From positions 1-48,908 of the IMG/VR virus record IMGVR_UViG_2897346870_000004: a stretch of DNA of 48,908 bases; one strand, 5' to 3'. This document shows positions 1,553 to 16,691 of the stretch, piece by piece. The stretch comes from a virus (taxonomy: Duplodnaviria; Heunggongvirae; Uroviricota; Caudoviricetes). The notes below the pieces were generated by a model. That model worked only from the letters and a program-made list of their open reading frames with translations, was not told the origin of the DNA and made no database searches. Every line of letters starts with the position of its first letter. The stretch's first letter is position 1. The translations under genes were made by a program, and so were the position numbers.

Positions 1553-1741
1553 TCACGAGGACTGAAGTTGCTCGCAATTAAAATTTATCAGTTTTACTTT
1601 CTGCTCTCTGGAAACGCCTGCTTCTTTTTTACCTGAGAGCATTTTTTCGCATTCTGATTTGGTTAATTTTGTTTTTGAGTACCTTGTCCAGTTAGTAGGA
1701 GTGCCACCTTCCTTTTCAATAGTGGCGGTAATTTTATACAT
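1553..1741 (-). CDS. Hypothetical small early protein (62 aa)
   Basis: ORF with GGAGGTG RBS upstream of ATG at 1741; lies between lar and xis in the leftward operon. Confidence 0.4.
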   Translation of the reverse strand: MYKITATIEKEGGTPTNWTRYSKTKLTKSECEKMLSGKKEAGVSREQKVKLINFNCEQLQSS

Positions 1742-12828: not shown

Positions 12829-12942
12829 GCGGAAGTTGCTAAAACGGTTTACCGTGTCCAAAGGAGTCAGGGGCAACAACGCGATATTGCTGACTGAGGT
12901 TTGGATCTAATCCTAGGACATGTCAGGAGCAATGCTAATCTA

Positions 12943-12971
12943 TTCATTAAAGCAGAGTATATGCCTATAAT
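12943..12971 (+). promoter_or_regulatory. Candidate sigma70 promoter (TTCATT, 17-nt spacer, TATAAT)
   Basis: Perfect -10 hexamer with a 17-nt spacer to a weak -35, about 84 bp upstream of the 13055 start. Confidence 0.3.
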
Positions 12972-13054
12972 TTAGAACCTTGCTATGGACATGAAAATGT
13001 GTAACATGCAATAGATCTCTACACACAGCAGGATTCCTACACCAAGGAGTGTTT

Positions 13055-13456
13055 ATGATTAACGAATCCAGTCCTTTCCCAGACAACGAAATTATATCCT
13101 TCTATGACTGTACTGGCATGTCCATTTTTTATCTACATAGTGATGGTGAAAGTTTTTATCACTATGACGGAACCCCACTAGCCTATTTATATAATAATGA
13201 ATATATGGTTTCATATTCAGGTCAGTATTTAGGTTGGCTATATAATGGGAGTATTATAGATTATAAAAATGGGGCTTATGTTTTTTTTACAGCTTATAGT
13301 TCTGGTGGGCCATCGCGACCAAGCCGAAAGTCTCGACCAAGTCGATTATCAAGAAGGAGCAGACCTGCTAAATTAATTCGTAATAGTCGACCGTCACGAC
13401 CTTCAAGACAAACCAGATGGAGCGAGCGAAGCAACATGAGTTTTTTCAGTAGTTAA
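13055..13456 (+). CDS. Hypothetical 133-aa protein: fourfold beta-hairpin-like repeat domain plus Ser/Arg/Pro-rich tail (cassette gene 1)
   Basis: AAGGAG RBS 5 nt before ATG 13055; four repeats of Y-x-x-x-G-x-x-[LIV]-x-[YWF]-[LF] (YDCTGMSIFYL, YDGTPLAYL, YSGQYLGWL, YKNGAYVFF); C-terminal SRPSR repeats; AT-rich. Confidence 0.6.
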   Translation: MINESSPFPDNEIISFYDCTGMSIFYLHSDGESFYHYDGTPLAYLYNNEYMVSYSGQYLGWLYNGSIIDYKNGAYVFFTAYSSGGPSRPSRKSRPSRLSRRSRPAKLIRNSRPSRPSRQTRWSERSNMSFFSS

Positions 13457-13534
13457 ATTCTCGTTGTATTAAAAAATAGATTGATTTGAAAGTTAGCATA
13501 TTTACCTACTATCAAATAATGAAAAGGGTTAAAG

Positions 13535-14950
13535 ATGAGTAATCTTCCTACTACAGTAAATACAACCGCAGTAACCACTGGTGTTGATAATTTCACGACG
13601 TCATTAACTACTTACCTCACCGATTTGAATCTTCCGGCAAACGGCGTTTTAGTCGGCAATGATCAGAGGTACACTGTAATTGATAACTTCCCAAAGGTTA
13701 TTGGTGGTATTGACAGTGCAAGGCTTTCAGATTCGTTATATCTATCAAAGTTTATTGCAGCGTGCGGCGCTGGCCTTTTTGATGCAGCACTAAATTTTTT
13801 ATGGAATGAAACAGTAGTAAATTTGAGATGGAAGGTTTCCCTTAACGATATAGACTATTTTTATGACAGTATTGTCACTGACACAAAAAGAAGAGATAAG
13901 CTTAAAACTGTAGATGATTTAGTTAATATAGAGGAGTGGGAGCTTGTTAAGGGTTGCCACTTAACGGGATTACTTTCGGATATAGGTTTTAAACATCTTG
14001 ATTATATAAGAGATATGAGGAACTGGGCTAGTGCAGCACATCCTAACCAAAGTCAGCTAACAGGATTCATGCTCATCTCATGGCTTGAAACCTGCATCAA
14101 AGAAGTGATTGCGAAAGAACCAGAACCTTCTGCATTACAAATAAAGAGAGTACTATCTAACATCAGAGGCGCTAACTTAGAAGGCGATGACTTAGCCCAT
14201 ATAAAATCTGCGATGGAAAACCTACCTCAAGATGTTGTTGATTCTTTCTTAAGAACTATATTTGGGATGTATACTAATGATAACGCGGCTGTACAGGTTA
14301 AGAATAATATAAAAGGAATTGCAAAAAAATGTTGGGATCTTTCGTCAGAAACTACGAAGTATAGTTGTGGTATAAGATATCAATCTTTTGCAGCTAACGG
14401 AGAGAGAGCTAGGAAAGATGCGGCTAATGAGTTTTTAACTACTGTATCTGGTCTTCCATATCTTCCATCAGACTCTTTGGCTGTTGAAATATCAATCAGA
14501 GTGACAAATTTATACCAAGCCCATTTTGGATGGAATAATTTCCATAATGAACCTGCTCATGCATCCTCTTTGGCAGCATATATCTCCTCTGCTGGGAATG
14601 TCCCTGACTCAGTTCGATTTGAATATGTTAAGACTATAGTTTTGTGTTATTTGGGCAACAGCTATGGAGTGTCTAATATGGCCGTTTCTTACTATGAAGA
14701 AATGATTGGTAAGTTCGGCGAGGCAGAGTTAAAAGAGTTCGTAAAAATAATTTATGATAAAGACGTGATATCTAGGCTTGCAACTCAAACATGTGCTTCT
14801 CGATATAAACATATAGCATCCAATTTTGTTAGCAGAACTACCAATCAAATAACCTCGCAAGCTCTTAATGCGATCATAGCATCGACTGCTCTCCAGTTAC
14901 CGAACCTATCGAAAGCAACGGCCTACGATAAACTTATTCGCTCATACTAA
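13535..14950 (+). CDS. Hypothetical 471-aa protein with HEPN-like R-x6-H motif (candidate abortive-infection effector; cassette gene 2)
   Basis: AAAGGG RBS; co-oriented 78 bp downstream of gene 1; followed by a strong terminator; motif RDMRNWASAAH at residues 159-169; no Walker A; AT-rich. Confidence 0.7.
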   Translation: MSNLPTTVNTTAVTTGVDNFTTSLTTYLTDLNLPANGVLVGNDQRYTVIDNFPKVIGGIDSARLSDSLYLSKFIAACGAGLFDAALNFLWNETVVNLRWKVSLNDIDYFYDSIVTDTKRRDKLKTVDDLVNIEEWELVKGCHLTGLLSDIGFKHLDYIRDMRNWASAAHPNQSQLTGFMLISWLETCIKEVIAKEPEPSALQIKRVLSNIRGANLEGDDLAHIKSAMENLPQDVVDSFLRTIFGMYTNDNAAVQVKNNIKGIAKKCWDLSSETTKYSCGIRYQSFAANGERARKDAANEFLTTVSGLPYLPSDSLAVEISIRVTNLYQAHFGWNNFHNEPAHASSLAAYISSAGNVPDSVRFEYVKTIVLCYLGNSYGVSNMAVSYYEEMIGKFGEAELKEFVKIIYDKDVISRLATQTCASRYKHIASNFVSRTTNQITSQALNAIIASTALQLPNLSKATAYDKLIRSY

Positions 14951-14987
14951 ATACTGTGAGACAAAAACAGGCTTAGATCAGATAACA

Positions 14988-15012
14988 GCCCTCTCTATTC
15001 GAGGGCTTTTTT
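14988..15012 (+). terminator. Rho-independent terminator (GCCCTC stem, 7-nt loop, GAGGGC, TTTTTT)
   Basis: Direct reading, 38 bp after the stop of the 471-aa gene. Confidence 0.65.
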
Positions 15013-15102
15013 GTAGGAATGCTTAATTGAATATCCGCTTTTCGCTCAAAGAGGACTAAAATGTTGGCTTGTTTCTGACTTAGAGCATTTAAGGAAGTGC
15101 TG

Positions 15103-15321
15103 GTGGTGACTGGTTGTTGTGTTCCATTTCTACAGAATAAAATCACAGAAACTATACCCAATAGTTGTATTGAATCACTGACGAGACAGCCTCATATTTA
15201 TCAGGACTGGTGTGCGTCTAATACAGGGGGTTGTCGTGCTGGTTCTCAAATGTGCGCTGGCTATTGCGGCTGTAATGGCAATTTATTGTCTTGCTGTTGT
15301 TCTTATGGAGCGGCTTTCTGA
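15103..15321 (+). CDS. Candidate cysteine-rich small protein (about 72 aa, GTG start)
   Basis: AAGGAA RBS 6 nt before GTG 15103; 11 Cys in about 72 residues (GCC, CAGYCGCNGNLLSCCCS); weak support, possibly spurious. Confidence 0.25.
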   Translation: MVTGCCVPFLQNKITETIPNSCIESLTRQPHIYQDWCASNTGGCRAGSQMCAGYCGCNGNLLSCCCSYGAAF

Positions 15322-15473
15322 TTGATTACATACTGGCTAGAAAAAAGGTGTTACCTTGGTTTATCTTTGTCCGGCAAGGTGCGCTCATTAATCTTAAGTA
15401 AATTTATTGCTCAAGTATTCAGATTACTTCTTATGGTTGAAGTCTCCTGTCAATGTAGAACCAATATATTTAC

Positions 15474-15510
15474 AAAAATGAGACCCGTCGGGGATAGCCC
15501 TGCCGGGTCT
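15474..15510 (-). terminator. Hairpin plus T-run terminator for the YeaR-like gene
   Basis: AGACCCG / CGGGTCT stem followed on the minus strand by CATTTTTG, about 30 nt after the stop. Confidence 0.45.
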
Positions 15511-15539
15511 GACTGTTAAAGCATTTTTAATATGATCAT

Positions 15540-15878
15540 CTATTTTTTGGTGCTATAGACTTTTTCGCCCGAGAAGTCTGGAGCGACCCAAAAGTTAATA
15601 TTAAACTGAGCATCATCGCTTAGTTCAACACGGTGCCAGTATTGTGGTGGGCTTGTTGCAAAAGCGCCAGCATTAATGACTACTTTTATCTCCGGTTCAG
15701 TAGCATTCTCATCAGTAAAACCATAATATGTTACAGTGCCTTCCATTACGCACAACTGCCCAAAAACACCTGCTGCTGTATTATGATGTGTTAATAACGC
15801 TGAAGGTACGTTCTCTTTTGTGAAGAACGGAGTTGAGCGTTTGATTACCCAATCTTTAGGAATTCTCTTGTGTGTCAT
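15540..15878 (-). CDS. YeaR-like (DUF1971 / TehB C-terminal-like) protein, 112 aa
   Basis: AGGAGG RBS; motifs RSTPFF, VMEGTVTYYG, EPEIKVVINAGAFATSPPQYWH, FNINFWVAPD resemble my recollection of YeaR; AT-rich moron on the opposite strand to neighbours. Confidence 0.7.
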   Translation of the reverse strand: MTHKRIPKDWVIKRSTPFFTKENVPSALLTHHNTAAGVFGQLCVMEGTVTYYGFTDENATEPEIKVVINAGAFATSPPQYWHRVELSDDAQFNINFWVAPDFSGEKVYSTKK

Positions 15879-15893
15879 AACCACCTCCTCAAA

Positions 15894-15916
15894 AACATGC
15901 ATTATAAATGCGTGTT
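15894..15916. promoter_or_regulatory. NsrR-like 11-1-11 inverted repeat AACATGCATTA-T-AAATGCGTGTT with a TATAAT at its centre on the minus strand
   Basis: Direct reading; 16 bp upstream of the YeaR-like start; resembles the NsrR operator consensus as I recall it (AAnATGCATTT-n-AAATGCATnTT). Confidence 0.4.
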
Positions 15917-16203
15917 TTTGAGGGTTATGTCAAGCTGTTATGAAACACATAATTGATATGTTGATTAGAGGAGAAGATATAATAAATATGGTTGTTTTTC
16001 GTATAACTATTTGTTTTACTTTTAGTTTATGCATTCTGTGTGTTAGGAATAAGTTATTAAAGTTTAATCAAAAAATCTCGATGTAGTCCACATAGATTAT
16101 TGTTACTGAACCTTATTGTGTGTATTAGTTGTGTTCTGAAATTTCAGCTTAATTATTTATGATGTATTTTTTAACGATAAATATTTTCCCAGGATACCTT
16201 TAC

Positions 16204-16230
16204 TGTGTATATAAATAAATTATATACACA
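16204..16230. repeat. 27-bp palindrome TGTGTATATAA-ATAAA-TTATATACACA
   Basis: 11-bp perfect arms with 5-nt spacer inside a roughly 790-bp AT-rich non-coding stretch. Confidence 0.6.
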
Positions 16231-16691
16231 TAAATAATGTAAAGGCGTCCTTTTAGATATATCTTATCAAATGTTAATGACTTGAGTGGGAAATATGATT
16301 CCAGCAACTTATCATGTGGCTACTTTATAAAAATAATGCCCATATAAAACAACAAGCGAAAAGGATTACGGATAAAAAAGGAGCGAGATGTGCGAACTTG
16401 TTATTTTCCATGTTTAACCACCTTAAATAATTGATGATGACGGGATGATTGCATCTGTAATGCTTTTATTGAAATGTTATGATAAAAAAGAACTTTTGCA
16501 TAACATTAAAATGTAATTTATCTAATCGTTTTTAATAATAAATGTCGTATTTCTATCCTTGTACCAGCTATTTGATATGTAGTGTTTGTTCATGCTATGT
16601 GGGGCTTTACACCATAGCCAGTTTATTTATACTTTATTCGTCAGCCTGAACAACTGGCATCTGCTGCGCTGCGCCATCGAGAGATTGAGAA

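What the first reader, a model, noticed from the sequence alone, without database searches (positions are those of the whole stretch)
15540..15916. Prophage-borne YeaR-like gene with an NsrR-like operator over its promoter
Seen: a 112-aa minus-strand ORF with strong RBS and its own terminator resembles my recollection of the YeaR/DUF1971 family. Sixteen bp upstream of its start is AACATGCATTA-T-AAATGCGTGTT, an 11-1-11 inverted repeat close to the NsrR operator consensus as I remember it, with a TATAAT at its centre on the coding strand. Established: chromosomal yeaR is repressed by NsrR and induced by nitric oxide or nitrate. Inference: this moron would be switched on by nitrosative stress independently of prophage induction, a possible host-fitness function.
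Basis: partly seen in the sequence, partly recalled or inferred. Interest (0 to 1): 0.5.

Follow-up and report, generated by a model that had tools for sequence, protein, structure and literature searches.

The report
Prophage NO-stress gene with NsrR operator
A Rac-like E. coli prophage carries a small stress-protein gene, closest to a Salmonella gene previously linked to nitric-oxide stress and virulence, together with the DNA site through which the host's nitric-oxide sensor NsrR most likely keeps it off until the cell meets nitric oxide; this is a tidy but unsurprising case of a phage supplying a host-regulated fitness gene.

Summary
A 112-aa ORF (15540-15878, minus strand) has a GAGGAGG ribosome-binding site and a hairpin plus U-tract downstream. 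It is a DUF1971 protein (Pfam E 2e-26).

It is 41% identical to E. coli YeaR. It is 79% identical to the Salmonella protein encoded beside nhaB-dsbB, the position I take to be STM1808. It is about 78% identical to PDB 3DL3.

The palindrome at 15894-15916 scores 18.3 bits (ln P -15.0) with a matrix built from 19 published E. coli NsrR sites. That beats 16 of 26 published sites. About 0.015 such hits are expected per window.

In 51 of 52 Enterobacterales orthologous loci, a 19-30-bit NsrR site lies 15-27 nt upstream of the start codon. The prophage promoter aligns with these, so gene and operator were probably captured together.

Both candidate -10 hexamers lie inside the operator. Repression by holo-NsrR and release by NO is therefore the best-supported mechanism, but it is untested.

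The window's operator allele is among the weakest, with C at a position that is usually T. The gene occurs in 456 of 5426 complete E. coli genomes, in a Rac-like prophage in all four loci whose annotation I read (two others were mobile-element-disrupted or unexamined). It is absent from K-12 Rac.

Verdict: a new member of a known kind, of moderate interest.

The parts
15540..15878 (-). CDS for a 112-aa DUF1971 protein of the STM1808 type (coordinates include the TAG stop)
   Evidence: The ORF is listed. It matches Pfam PF09313 at E 2.3e-26. It is 79% identical to the Salmonella protein encoded beside nhaB-dsbB, matches PDB 3DL3 at E 3.5e-59, and is 41% identical to YeaR. H31, H32 and H82 are invariant in the family alignment.
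15884..15890 (-). Shine-Dalgarno sequence GAGGAGG, 5 nt before the ATG
   Evidence: Read directly from the sequence. The GGAGG core is conserved in the chromosomal orthologues.
15894..15916 (.). NsrR-type 11-1-11 operator; the coding strand reads AACACGCATTTATAATGCATGTT
   Evidence: The site scores 18.3 bits, P 3e-7, and is the top hit in the window by 8 bits. Homologous sites of 19-30 bits are present in 51 of 52 Enterobacterales orthologous loci. The core positions are invariant among the 26 distinct sequences of the promoter-plus-gene region (13 distinct promoter/leader alleles).
15901..15906 (-). TATAAT hexamer at the centre of the operator; a candidate -10, 21 bp from TTGACA
   Evidence: Read from the sequence. 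It was not called by the sigma-70 scan, which allows 16-18 bp spacers. It is absent from the L088-type allele, which reads TTTAAT here.
15905..15910 (-). CATTTA, the alternative -10, 17 bp from TTGACA; positionally homologous to the TATTTT or TATATT of the chromosomal orthologues
   Evidence: Seen in alignment A3 and in the prophage alleles. This assignment is an inference.
15928..15933 (-). TTGACA, a -35-like hexamer
   Evidence: Read from the sequence. It is invariant among the prophage alleles. It aligns with the conserved TTTACA of the chromosomal orthologues.
15876..15929 (-). Extended quasi-palindrome of about 54 nt that includes the operator, the Shine-Dalgarno sequence and the AUG
   Evidence: The inverted repeat has 17-nt arms, 16 of 17 complementary. 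As RNA it folds at -22.3 kcal/mol, z -5.75. It is kept in all prophage alleles, with 3 pairs changed on both sides, but covariation is not decisive. It is absent from the chromosomal orthologues.
15474..15510 (-). Terminator-like hairpin plus U5 tract, about 30 nt after the stop codon
   Evidence: The fold gives -19.4 kcal/mol, z -2.2. The simple scan did not call it. Homology with the EBJ003-type prophages ends at the stop codon, so this element is specific to this allele's context.
15917..16691 (.). AT-rich non-coding spacer (26-32% GC) between the DUF1971 promoter and the divergent DUF1367 gene
   Evidence: Shown by the composition profile and the ORF list. Part of it persists in a prophage that lacks the gene (L005).

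Best explanation
This is a moron, an accessory gene with its own expression signals, in a complete Rac-like lambdoid prophage. It encodes a 112-aa DUF1971 protein of the STM1808 type.

The gene has its own promoter and ribosome-binding site and a terminator-like hairpin. It is transcribed opposite to the phage early-right operon.

A 23-bp NsrR-type palindrome covers both candidate -10 hexamers and the likely transcription start. In a lysogen growing without nitrosative stress, the host's [4Fe-4S] NsrR dimer would sit on this site and keep RNA polymerase off. Nitric oxide, or nitrite- and nitrate-derived NO, nitrosylates the cluster and NsrR leaves. A short, unstructured, strongly translatable leader would then be made, independently of prophage induction.

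Shown here: the protein's family and subfamily, the quality of the site, its homology and conservation across orthologues, and the prophage context.

Inferred: NsrR occupancy, which -10 is used, NO induction, and any benefit to the host. The expected benefit rests on Salmonella STM1808, which secondary citations place in the NsrR regulon with a role in virulence.
For: - Family: Pfam DUF1971 at E 2.3e-26.
- Subfamily: 79% identity to the Salmonella protein encoded immediately after nhaB-dsbB. STM1808 is cited as NsrR-regulated and linked to virulence (PMC7527575, citing Karlinsey 2012).
- Matrix source: 19 CFT073 sites, ChIP-seq-positive or independently validated, from PMC5320621 Table 4.
- Site score: 18.3 bits, ln P -15.0, 0.015 hits expected per window, higher than 16 of 26 published sites.
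- Matrix specificity: the same matrix finds only the known yeaR and tehA sites in 12 kb of K-12 (those two are training sites). In 463 kb of control sequence it gives 8 hits of 14 bits or more, all plausible real sites in three Oceanospirillales loci.
- Conservation: 51 of 52 Enterobacterales orthologous loci have a 19-30-bit site 15-27 nt before the ATG, against 0.25% of control windows reaching 16 bits.
- Shared ancestry: the promoter alignment shows that the -35 hexamer, operator, Shine-Dalgarno sequence and ATG are homologous between the prophage and the Kluyvera/Leclercia-clade chromosomes. The protein tree places the prophage copy as sister to that clade.
- Purifying pattern: among the 26 distinct sequences of the promoter-plus-gene region (13 distinct promoter/leader alleles), the high-information operator positions are invariant except positions 5 and 11. 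Variation falls mostly on positions that NsrR sites tolerate.
- Other alleles score 24.8-27.3 bits.
- Moron features: opposite strand, GC 0.26-0.41 against about 0.50 in the flanks, variable neighbours, and absence from K-12 Rac and from L005.
Against: - There is no binding or expression data for this locus.
- The window allele has C at operator position 5. No training site has C there, and it costs 5.3 bits.
- With an AT-rich null model, ln P falls to -13.3, below the published cut-off.
- No canonical sigma-70 promoter is called. TTGACA is 21 bp from TATAAT, and the hexamer at 17-bp spacing (CATTTA) lacks the -7 T. Intrinsic promoter strength and the exact start site are therefore unknown.
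- Most Vibrionaceae orthologues lack a site, so NsrR control is not universal in the family.
- I could not read the primary STM1808 paper. The assignment of the Salmonella orthologue to that locus tag rests on synteny plus my recollection of the gene order.
Confidence: 0.75

Rival explanations
1. The operator in this particular allele has decayed. The T-to-C change at position 5 and the A-to-T change at position 13 weaken NsrR binding enough that the gene is expressed constitutively or only leakily repressed. NsrR control would survive only in the better alleles.
For: The window allele (18.3 bits) and the AMSCJX02 allele (17.4 bits) are the lowest-scoring among the prophage alleles and the Enterobacterales orthologues, which score 19-30 bits. 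Position 5 costs 5.3 bits. The T-to-A change at position 12 creates a consensus TATAAT.
Against: The right half-site, AACATGCATTA, is near consensus. Single 11-bp half-sites are reported to suffice for NsrR (Partridge 2009, as cited in PMC5320621). The score still exceeds the leave-one-out score of hmp, 16.7 bits. This allele is the commonest: 16 of 35 scored IMG/VR loci, and roughly 300 of 465 E. coli genomes are at least 99% identical over the region.
Confidence: 0.15
2. The palindrome acts mainly as a nucleic-acid structure. One version is an RNA hairpin that hides the Shine-Dalgarno sequence and AUG in transcripts started upstream. Another is a bidirectional insulator or terminator (A5-stem-T5). 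On this reading, NsrR binding is secondary or absent.
For: The 54-nt quasi-palindrome pairs CCUC with GAGG and CAUAACC with GGUUAUG (-22.3 kcal/mol, z -5.75). It is kept in all 13 distinct alleles, with 91% of cells paired and 3 pairs changed on both sides. The extension is absent from the chromosomal orthologues.
Against: The covariation is not decisive: 22 of 500 shuffles reach the observed score, and the sequences are close relatives. The double changes could come from template-switch mutation at a quasi-palindrome rather than from selection. No good promoter lies upstream; the nearest consensus match is about 220 nt away and is weak. The U-run is inside the stem, so this is not a canonical terminator. 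The 23-bp core is explained by homology with NsrR sites in orthologues that lack the extension.
Confidence: 0.1
3. The palindrome is the operator of a different regulator, such as a phage repressor or another host factor, or it is a chance palindrome in AT-rich DNA.
For: AT-rich intergenic DNA inflates chance matches: with an AT-rich null model, about 0.08 hits are expected per window. A loose IUPAC version of the motif with 3 mismatches is found once, against 0.64 expected.
Against: No second copy exists anywhere in the window, including the immunity region, so it is not a reiterated phage operator. The match is to the full weighted matrix, not just to a palindrome. Orthologues across many genera carry near-consensus NsrR sites at the same spot.
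Confidence: 0.04

Closest known systems
Salmonella enterica STM1808 (DUF1971 protein of the NsrR regulon; Karlinsey et al. 2012)
   Same: The two proteins are 79% identical over their full length. The histidines at positions 32 and 82 are invariant in the family alignment. The Salmonella locus has an NsrR-type palindrome shortly before the start codon (L036: 19.2 bits, 27 nt upstream). Both genes stand alone, with no partner gene.
   Different: The Salmonella gene is a chromosomal core gene between dsbB and ycgN. The gene here is carried on a Rac-like prophage, is found in only about 8% of E. coli genomes, is AT-shifted (GC3 0.35), and has a remodelled promoter and an extended palindrome. The STM1808 identity of the Salmonella locus is inferred from synteny. 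Its zinc binding and NO-resistance phenotype come from my memory of a paper I could not read.
E. coli yeaR-yoaG operon (repressed by NsrR, activated by NarL)
   Same: YeaR has the same Pfam domain (PDB 3BB6 matches at E 1.6e-24). It has an NsrR 11-1-11 site in its control region and was up 160-fold in nitrate-grown CFT073.
   Different: Identity is only 41%. No yoaG-like gene lies downstream here. The yeaR operator lies about 45-70 nt before the ATG, in a different promoter architecture. The gene here is therefore a paralogue, not an orthologue.
TehB, the tellurite methyltransferase with an N-terminal DUF1971 domain in some species (PDB 3M70)
   Same: The DUF1971 domain is homologous (E 5e-11). 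RefSeq labels some copies of this gene 'TehB family protein'.
   Different: No SAM-methyltransferase domain is present. The NCBIfam TehB model scores 49 bits against a cut-off of 303.
Vibrio fischeri DUF1971 protein, PDB 3DL3 (deposited as 'Tellurite resistance protein B')
   Same: It is about 78% identical over 111 residues (E 3.5e-59), so the fold of the prophage protein is effectively known.
   Different: The Aliivibrio fischeri loci show no NsrR-type site within 200 nt upstream (L072, L078). No function has been assigned.
Lambdoid prophage morons (for example bor and lom of lambda, sseK3 and sodC of Salmonella prophages)
   Same: The gene is an autonomous promoter-gene-terminator unit. It lies in a variable slot of the phage map, has an AT-rich composition, and is expressed under host control during lysogeny (PMC7067206).
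   Different: Here the regulatory input can be named from sequence: an operator of a host regulon, apparently carried over with the gene from a chromosomal ancestor.

Membership tests
DUF1971 (Pfam PF09313) | A significant match to the family profile above the gathering score | tested here: met
   The match is 92 bits against a cut-off of 23.1, E 2.3e-26, covering profile positions 1-80 of 80.
STM1808-type subfamily of DUF1971 | High full-length identity to the Salmonella protein encoded next to dsbB, closer than to YeaR or TehB | tested here: met
   Identity is 79% to the L036 protein against 41% to YeaR. The L036 gene order is nhaB-dsbB-DUF1971-...-ycgN-ycgM. Equating this locus with locus tag STM1808 relies on my memory of the LT2 gene order.
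STM1808-type subfamily of DUF1971 | Conserved histidines (H32, H82) reported as needed for zinc binding and NO resistance | tested here: met
   H31, H32 and H82 are invariant in the 16-sequence alignment. That these residues bind zinc comes from my memory of Karlinsey 2012, which could not be read here. Metal binding itself cannot be tested with these tools.
YeaR orthologue (yeaR-yoaG operon) | Orthologous sequence and a downstream yoaG (DUF1869) partner | tested here: not met
   Identity is 41%. No minus-strand ORF of 40 aa or more lies directly downstream of the stop codon, and a terminator-like hairpin follows the stop.
TehB tellurite methyltransferase | A SAM-dependent methyltransferase domain | tested here: not met
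   The protein has 112 aa. The NCBIfam TehB equivalog model scores 49 bits against a cut-off of 303, and only over the N-terminal domain.
NsrR regulon operator (E. coli type) | An 11-1-11 inverted repeat that matches the NsrR position weight matrix above threshold | tested here: met
   The site scores 18.3 bits, ln P -15.0. The published PatSer cut-off is -14.28, but for a different matrix. The site ranks above 16 of 26 published sites. With an AT-rich null model ln P is -13.3, so the pass is not by a wide margin for this allele. Other alleles give ln P of -21 to -23.
NsrR regulon operator (E. coli type) | The site overlaps the core promoter, as expected for a repressor | tested here: inconclusive
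   Both candidate -10 hexamers (15905-15910 and 15901-15906) lie inside the site, and the -35 hexamer is 11 bp upstream of it. The transcription start is not mapped, and no canonical promoter is called.
NsrR regulon operator (E. coli type) | The site is conserved upstream of orthologous genes | tested here: met
   In 51 of 52 Enterobacterales loci a site of at least 16 bits lies 15-27 nt before the ATG. Only 0.25% of control windows reach 16 bits, and the controls are examined.
NsrR regulon operator (E. coli type) | NsrR binds the site, and the gene is derepressed in an nsrR mutant or by NO | not testable with these tools
   This needs EMSA or ChIP and reporter or RNA measurements.
Prophage moron | An autonomous transcription unit in a variable slot, present or absent among related phages, with atypical composition | tested here: met
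   The gene is on the strand opposite to the replication and nin genes, with promoter-like elements and a terminator-like hairpin. Its neighbours differ among related prophages: a 471-aa ORF and a Bflower gene, or KilA-N and Hok, or QueH. It is absent from K-12 Rac and from L005. GC is 0.26-0.41 against about 0.50 in the flanks.

The most novel reading that the evidence does not exclude
The 54-nt quasi-palindrome that extends the NsrR operator out to the Shine-Dalgarno sequence and start codon may be a selected second layer of control that arose on the phage. It is specific to the prophage lineage and shows three double-sided changes among alleles. Transcripts that start at the NsrR-gated promoter would begin inside the palindrome and be freely translated. 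Any read-through transcript from upstream phage or antisense promoters would fold a hairpin of about -22 kcal/mol that buries the Shine-Dalgarno sequence and AUG. Expression of the moron would then depend strictly on the host NO signal. The many operator alleles (17-27 bits) would represent tuning of the NO threshold in different lysogens.
Probability: 0.12. Interest if true: 0.55.

Novelty: new member of a known kind. Interest (0 to 1): 0.38.

Why it matters
E. coli has YeaR and TehB. A DNA search of 5426 complete genomes found no E. coli copy of this STM1808-type gene other than this one, which lay in a Rac-like prophage in every locus whose annotation I read, although a highly diverged chromosomal homologue would escape that search. 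About 8% of those genomes, many from clinical and poultry isolates, carry the prophage-linked copy.

If the operator works as predicted, this prophage adds a gene to the host's nitric-oxide regulon ready-wired, with no new regulator needed. That would be a clean example of a regulon member moving horizontally together with its operator.

The set of natural operator alleles, spanning 17 to 27 bits, is a ready-made series for testing how NsrR site quality sets repression. The gene is also a candidate contributor to survival under host-derived NO.

None of this changes the current understanding of NsrR or of DUF1971, whose biochemical function remains unknown.

Tried and rejected
- **YeaR orthology:** rejected. 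Identity is 41%, there is no yoaG partner, and the operator is placed differently.
- **TehB methyltransferase:** rejected, because there is no methyltransferase domain.
- **Anti-phage defence role:** no PADLOC hit for this gene or its two neighbours.
- **Reiterated phage operator:** no second copy of the palindrome in the window.
- **Second NsrR site at 15974-15996 (10.0 bits):** at chance level, since 2-9 such hits are expected per window.
- **Canonical sigma-70 promoter and intrinsic terminator:** neither was called by the simple scans. I assigned the promoter elements by homology and the terminator by folding.
- **Fur control:** the Fur-box-like element of the Kluyvera/Leclercia-clade orthologues is absent here (12 of 19 matches, which is background).
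- **Known RNA family in the region:** Rfam finds nothing near the locus; its only hit in the window is RalA at 1557-1735.
- **RNA-structure covariation in the extended palindrome:** inconclusive.
- **Literature:** no searchable paper combines NsrR with DUF1971, names the protein accessions, or reports an NsrR-controlled prophage gene. The primary papers Karlinsey 2012 and Lin 2007 are not held.
Full report
**1. What is in the sequence**

On the minus strand an ORF runs from ATG 15878 to the TAG stop at 15540-15542 and encodes 112 aa. GAGGAGG lies at 15884-15890, 5 nt before the ATG. The longer 120-aa reading that starts at 15902 has no ribosome-binding site. Homologues begin at the MTH/MSH position, so 112 aa is correct.

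Fifteen nucleotides upstream of the ATG lies the palindrome at 15894-15916. On the coding strand it reads AACACGCATTT-A-TAATGCATGTT, with arms complementary at 9 of 11 positions. TATAAT lies at its centre (15901-15906).

About 30 nt after the stop codon there is a G+C stem (15481-15510) followed by U5 (dG -19.4 kcal/mol, z -2.2). The simple terminator scan missed it because the loop is long.

The repeat is longer than reported. The arms are 17 nt with 16 of 17 complementary (15887-15903 and 15907-15923). A further outer pairing of CATAACC with GGTTATG reaches the start codon.

**2. The protein**

Pfam assigns it to DUF1971 (92 bits, E 2.3e-26). The TehB model of NCBIfam matches only the N-terminal domain and scores far below its cut-off.

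Against solved structures, the best match is 3DL3, a Vibrio fischeri structural-genomics entry (E 3.5e-59, about 78% identical). E. coli YeaR (3BB6, E 1.6e-24) and the Haemophilus-type TehB (3M70) follow.

Pairwise identity is 41% to K-12 YeaR. It is 79% to the Salmonella enterica subsp. diarizonae protein, whose gene lies directly after nhaB-dsbB and before ycgN-ycgM. From my knowledge of the LT2 gene order, that position is STM1808.

STM1808 is cited as a member of the Salmonella NsrR regulon with a role in virulence (PMC7527575 and PMC7082413, both citing Karlinsey 2012). I could not read the primary paper. My recollection that STM1808 is a zinc protein needing H32 and H82 is marked as memory. 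Those histidines are invariant in the family alignment.

The family is highly conserved, at 73-82% identity from Kluyvera to Vibrio. The gene is therefore 'YeaR-like' only at the domain level. It is an STM1808-type paralogue.

**3. Genomic context**

The window is a complete Rac-like lambdoid prophage:

- A closely related prophage, identical over the 901 bp searched, sits next to ttcA.
- The window carries RalA sRNA.
- It has DUF1627 and DUF977 replication-region genes, then DUF1367, YbcO and DUF1133 (Q-like) genes, followed by lysis and structural-length ORFs.

The DUF1971 gene lies between the replication and nin-like modules, on the opposite strand. It sits in an AT-rich island (12900-16650; GC 0.26-0.41 against about 0.50 in the flanks).

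The other contents of this island differ among related prophages. Here they are a Bflower-domain ORF and a 471-aa ORF of unknown function. Elsewhere they are KilA-N plus Hok, or QueH.

The K-12 Rac remnant lacks the region. One prophage (L005) keeps part of the upstream spacer but has IS elements and a NACHT gene instead.

The gene is present in 456 of 5426 complete E. coli genomes, always at 95% nucleotide identity or more, so no diverged chromosomal copy was detected. It is also present in Shigella (L006).

It occurs in three deposited phage records, the vB_EcoS-666R9 group, which are the only DUF1971 carriers among 50,697 phage records. It also occurs in 36 IMG/VR viral contigs.

**4. Scoring the site**

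I built a symmetrised matrix from 19 CFT073 sites listed in Table 4 of Mehta et al. 2015 (PMC5320621). These are the ChIP-seq-positive sites plus yeaR, ygbA and tehA, with one duplicate dropped.

- The window site scores 18.3 bits. Leave-one-out scores of the known sites run from 7.6 to 29.6, with hmp at 16.7.
- The exact tail probability is 3.1e-7 (ln P -15.0). That gives 0.015 expected hits in the window and about 1.5 in a 5-Mb genome. With an AT-rich null model the values are ln P -13.3 and 0.08 per window.
- The published cut-off for a similar but not identical matrix was ln P -14.28.
- The site outscores 16 of the 26 distinct published sites, even though many of those were in the training set.
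- The next-best position in the window scores 10.0 bits, which is chance level.

The penalties come from C at position 5 (-5.3 bits; no training site has C there) and T at position 13 (-1.7 bits). The right half-site is near consensus.

**5. Comparative test**

A scan of one genome per species returned 80 loci that encode close relatives of the protein.

In 51 of 52 Enterobacterales loci, the best site in the 200 nt upstream scores 18-30 bits and ends 15-27 nt before the ATG. These loci come from Kluyvera, Leclercia, Pseudescherichia, Buttiauxella, Pantoea, Enterobacter, Citrobacter, Klebsiella, Raoultella, Salmonella, Yokenella, Phytobacter and Silvania. The one exception, in Leclercia adecarboxylata, has the same palindrome with a one-base deletion at its centre.

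Only 0.25% of 1981 control windows from the same loci reach 16 bits. A position-by-position scan of 463 kb outside the upstream regions gave eight hits of 14 bits or more. All eight are paired palindromes in Neptunomonas and Parendozoicomonas loci and look like genuine sites of neighbouring operons.

Most Vibrionaceae and Shewanella orthologues have no site. Two Photobacterium loci do. This agrees with the early prediction of an NsrR-controlled 'tehB homolog' in enterobacteria and Photobacterium (Rodionov 2005, PMC1274295).

**6. Homology of the control region**

When the 140 nt before and around the ATG are aligned, the prophage promoter lines up with the Kluyvera/Leclercia/Pantoea/Enterobacter clade. 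The shared order is a -35 hexamer (TTGACA in the prophage, TTTACA in the chromosomes), then the palindrome, GGAGG and the ATG, with the same spacings.

A neighbour-joining tree puts the prophage protein as sister to that clade. Its GC3 is 0.35 against 0.44-0.69 in the clade. The most economical reading is that the gene was captured together with its operator and then drifted toward phage-island composition.

In the chromosomal orthologues, a plausible promoter is TTTACA-17 bp-TATTTT (or TATATT), with the -10 hexamer inside the left arm of the operator.

In the window, the homologous hexamer is CATTTA (15905-15910), which has lost the -7 T. A T-to-A change at operator position 12 has created TATAAT four bases downstream, 21 bp from TTGACA.

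The L088-type allele keeps T at position 12. It therefore has CATTTT at 17-bp spacing and no TATAAT.

I cannot tell which hexamer is used. Both lie inside the operator, so occlusion by NsrR follows in either case. This is an inference.

**7. Allelic variation**

Thirty-five IMG/VR loci with usable upstream sequence show nine operator alleles scoring 17.4-28.0 bits. One of them (28.0 bits, site 25 nt before the ATG) comes from L122, whose protein is only 78% identical. The window allele is the commonest, in 16 of the 35 loci.

In 26 distinct sequences of the promoter-plus-gene region, nucleotide diversity is 0.09-0.12 in the 50 nt before the ATG. It is 0.003-0.008 in the preceding 50 nt and 0-0.04 in the coding region.

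Within the operator, the variable positions are 3, 4, 5, 11, 12, 17 and 21. Five of these seven are low- or moderate-information positions in the matrix. All other positions are invariant. This pattern fits constraint on NsrR contacts sitting in a local mutational or recombinational hot spot.

**8. The extended palindrome (unexplained)**

If transcribed from upstream, the region 15876-15929 would fold at -22.3 kcal/mol (z -5.75). CCUC would pair with GAGG of the Shine-Dalgarno sequence, and CAUAACC with GGUUAUG.

All 13 distinct prophage alleles keep such a fold (-13 to -29 kcal/mol). Chromosomal orthologues fold only the operator core.

Three pairs show changes on both sides, for example A:U to C:G, and C:G to A:U in L093. 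The covariation score is reached by 22 of 500 shuffles. With such close relatives that is not decisive.

Selection on an RNA or DNA structure is possible. So is templated (template-switch) mutation at a quasi-palindrome, which would also explain the local excess of polymorphism.

**9. Mechanism and rivals**

Best-supported explanation (confidence 0.75): holo-NsrR represses by occupying the core promoter. NO releases it. The moron is expressed during lysogeny, independently of prophage induction, and supplies an STM1808-type protein that E. coli otherwise lacks.

Rivals:

- This allele's operator is too degraded to give tight repression (0.15).
- The palindrome works chiefly as a structure (0.10, not exclusive of NsrR control).
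- It is the site of another regulator, or a chance palindrome (0.04).

**10. Novelty**

The domain family, the NsrR motif and the NsrR control of this gene family are all known or predicted. What I could not find in the searchable literature is the prophage-borne copy with its operator.

It is a new member of a known kind, a credible candidate for experimental follow-up, and of moderate interest.

Noticed in passing
window 15876-15929 (minus strand): The NsrR palindrome is embedded in a quasi-palindrome of about 54 nt that pairs CCTC with the GAGG of the Shine-Dalgarno sequence and CATAACC with GGTTATG, which includes the start codon. As RNA it folds at -22.3 kcal/mol, z -5.75. It is kept in all 13 distinct prophage promoter/leader alleles, with three double-sided changes, and is absent from the chromosomal orthologues. 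The covariation test is inconclusive.
   Followed up: partly
L088-L123 (IMG/VR prophage copies), positions -49 to 0 relative to the ATG; window 15879-15927: There is a local polymorphism hot spot. Nucleotide diversity is 0.09-0.12 in the operator and leader, against 0.003-0.008 in the preceding 50 nt and 0-0.04 in the coding region. Nine operator alleles score between 17.4 and 28.0 bits; the highest comes from L122, whose protein is only 78% identical.
   Followed up: partly
L007-L028 (Kluyvera, Leclercia, Pantoea, Pseudescherichia and Buttiauxella chromosomal orthologues), about 40-60 nt upstream of the NsrR site: A Fur-box-like element, for example GATAATGAGATTCATTATC, matches the 19-nt consensus at 13-17 positions and lies just upstream of the -35 hexamer. 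It is absent from the Citrobacter/Klebsiella/Salmonella clade and from the prophage copy, where 12 of 19 matches is background.
   Followed up: partly
window 13535-14950 (+) and 13049-13456 (+): The same AT-rich island holds a 471-aa ORF with no Pfam or PADLOC match (it matches only phrog_27609, of unknown function) and a 135-aa Bflower-domain ORF (PF21784). In strain Combat13F7 the long ORF is annotated as two pieces.
   Followed up: partly
L070, L073, L080 (Neptunomonas, Parendozoicomonas), 0.7-1.7 kb from the DUF1971 gene: Pairs of strong NsrR-type palindromes (14-22 bits, spaced about 24-35 nt apart) lie near the gene in these Oceanospirillales. Most Vibrionaceae and Shewanella orthologues have no site within 3 kb.
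   Followed up: no
window 1557-1735 (+): Rfam matches RalA, the antitoxin sRNA of the RalR/RalA system of Rac, at 215 bits. It is the only Rfam hit in the window.
   Followed up: no
window 15917-16691: A 775-bp non-coding spacer of 26-32% GC lies between the DUF1971 promoter and the divergent DUF1367 gene. Part of it (about 15923-16120) persists in a prophage that has lost the DUF1971 gene (L005), so it belongs to the phage backbone. Its function was not examined.
   Followed up: no
window 15974-15996: The second-best NsrR matrix hit in the window (10.0 bits) lies 58 bp upstream of the operator. It is within chance expectation, since 2-9 such hits are expected per window.
   Followed up: no
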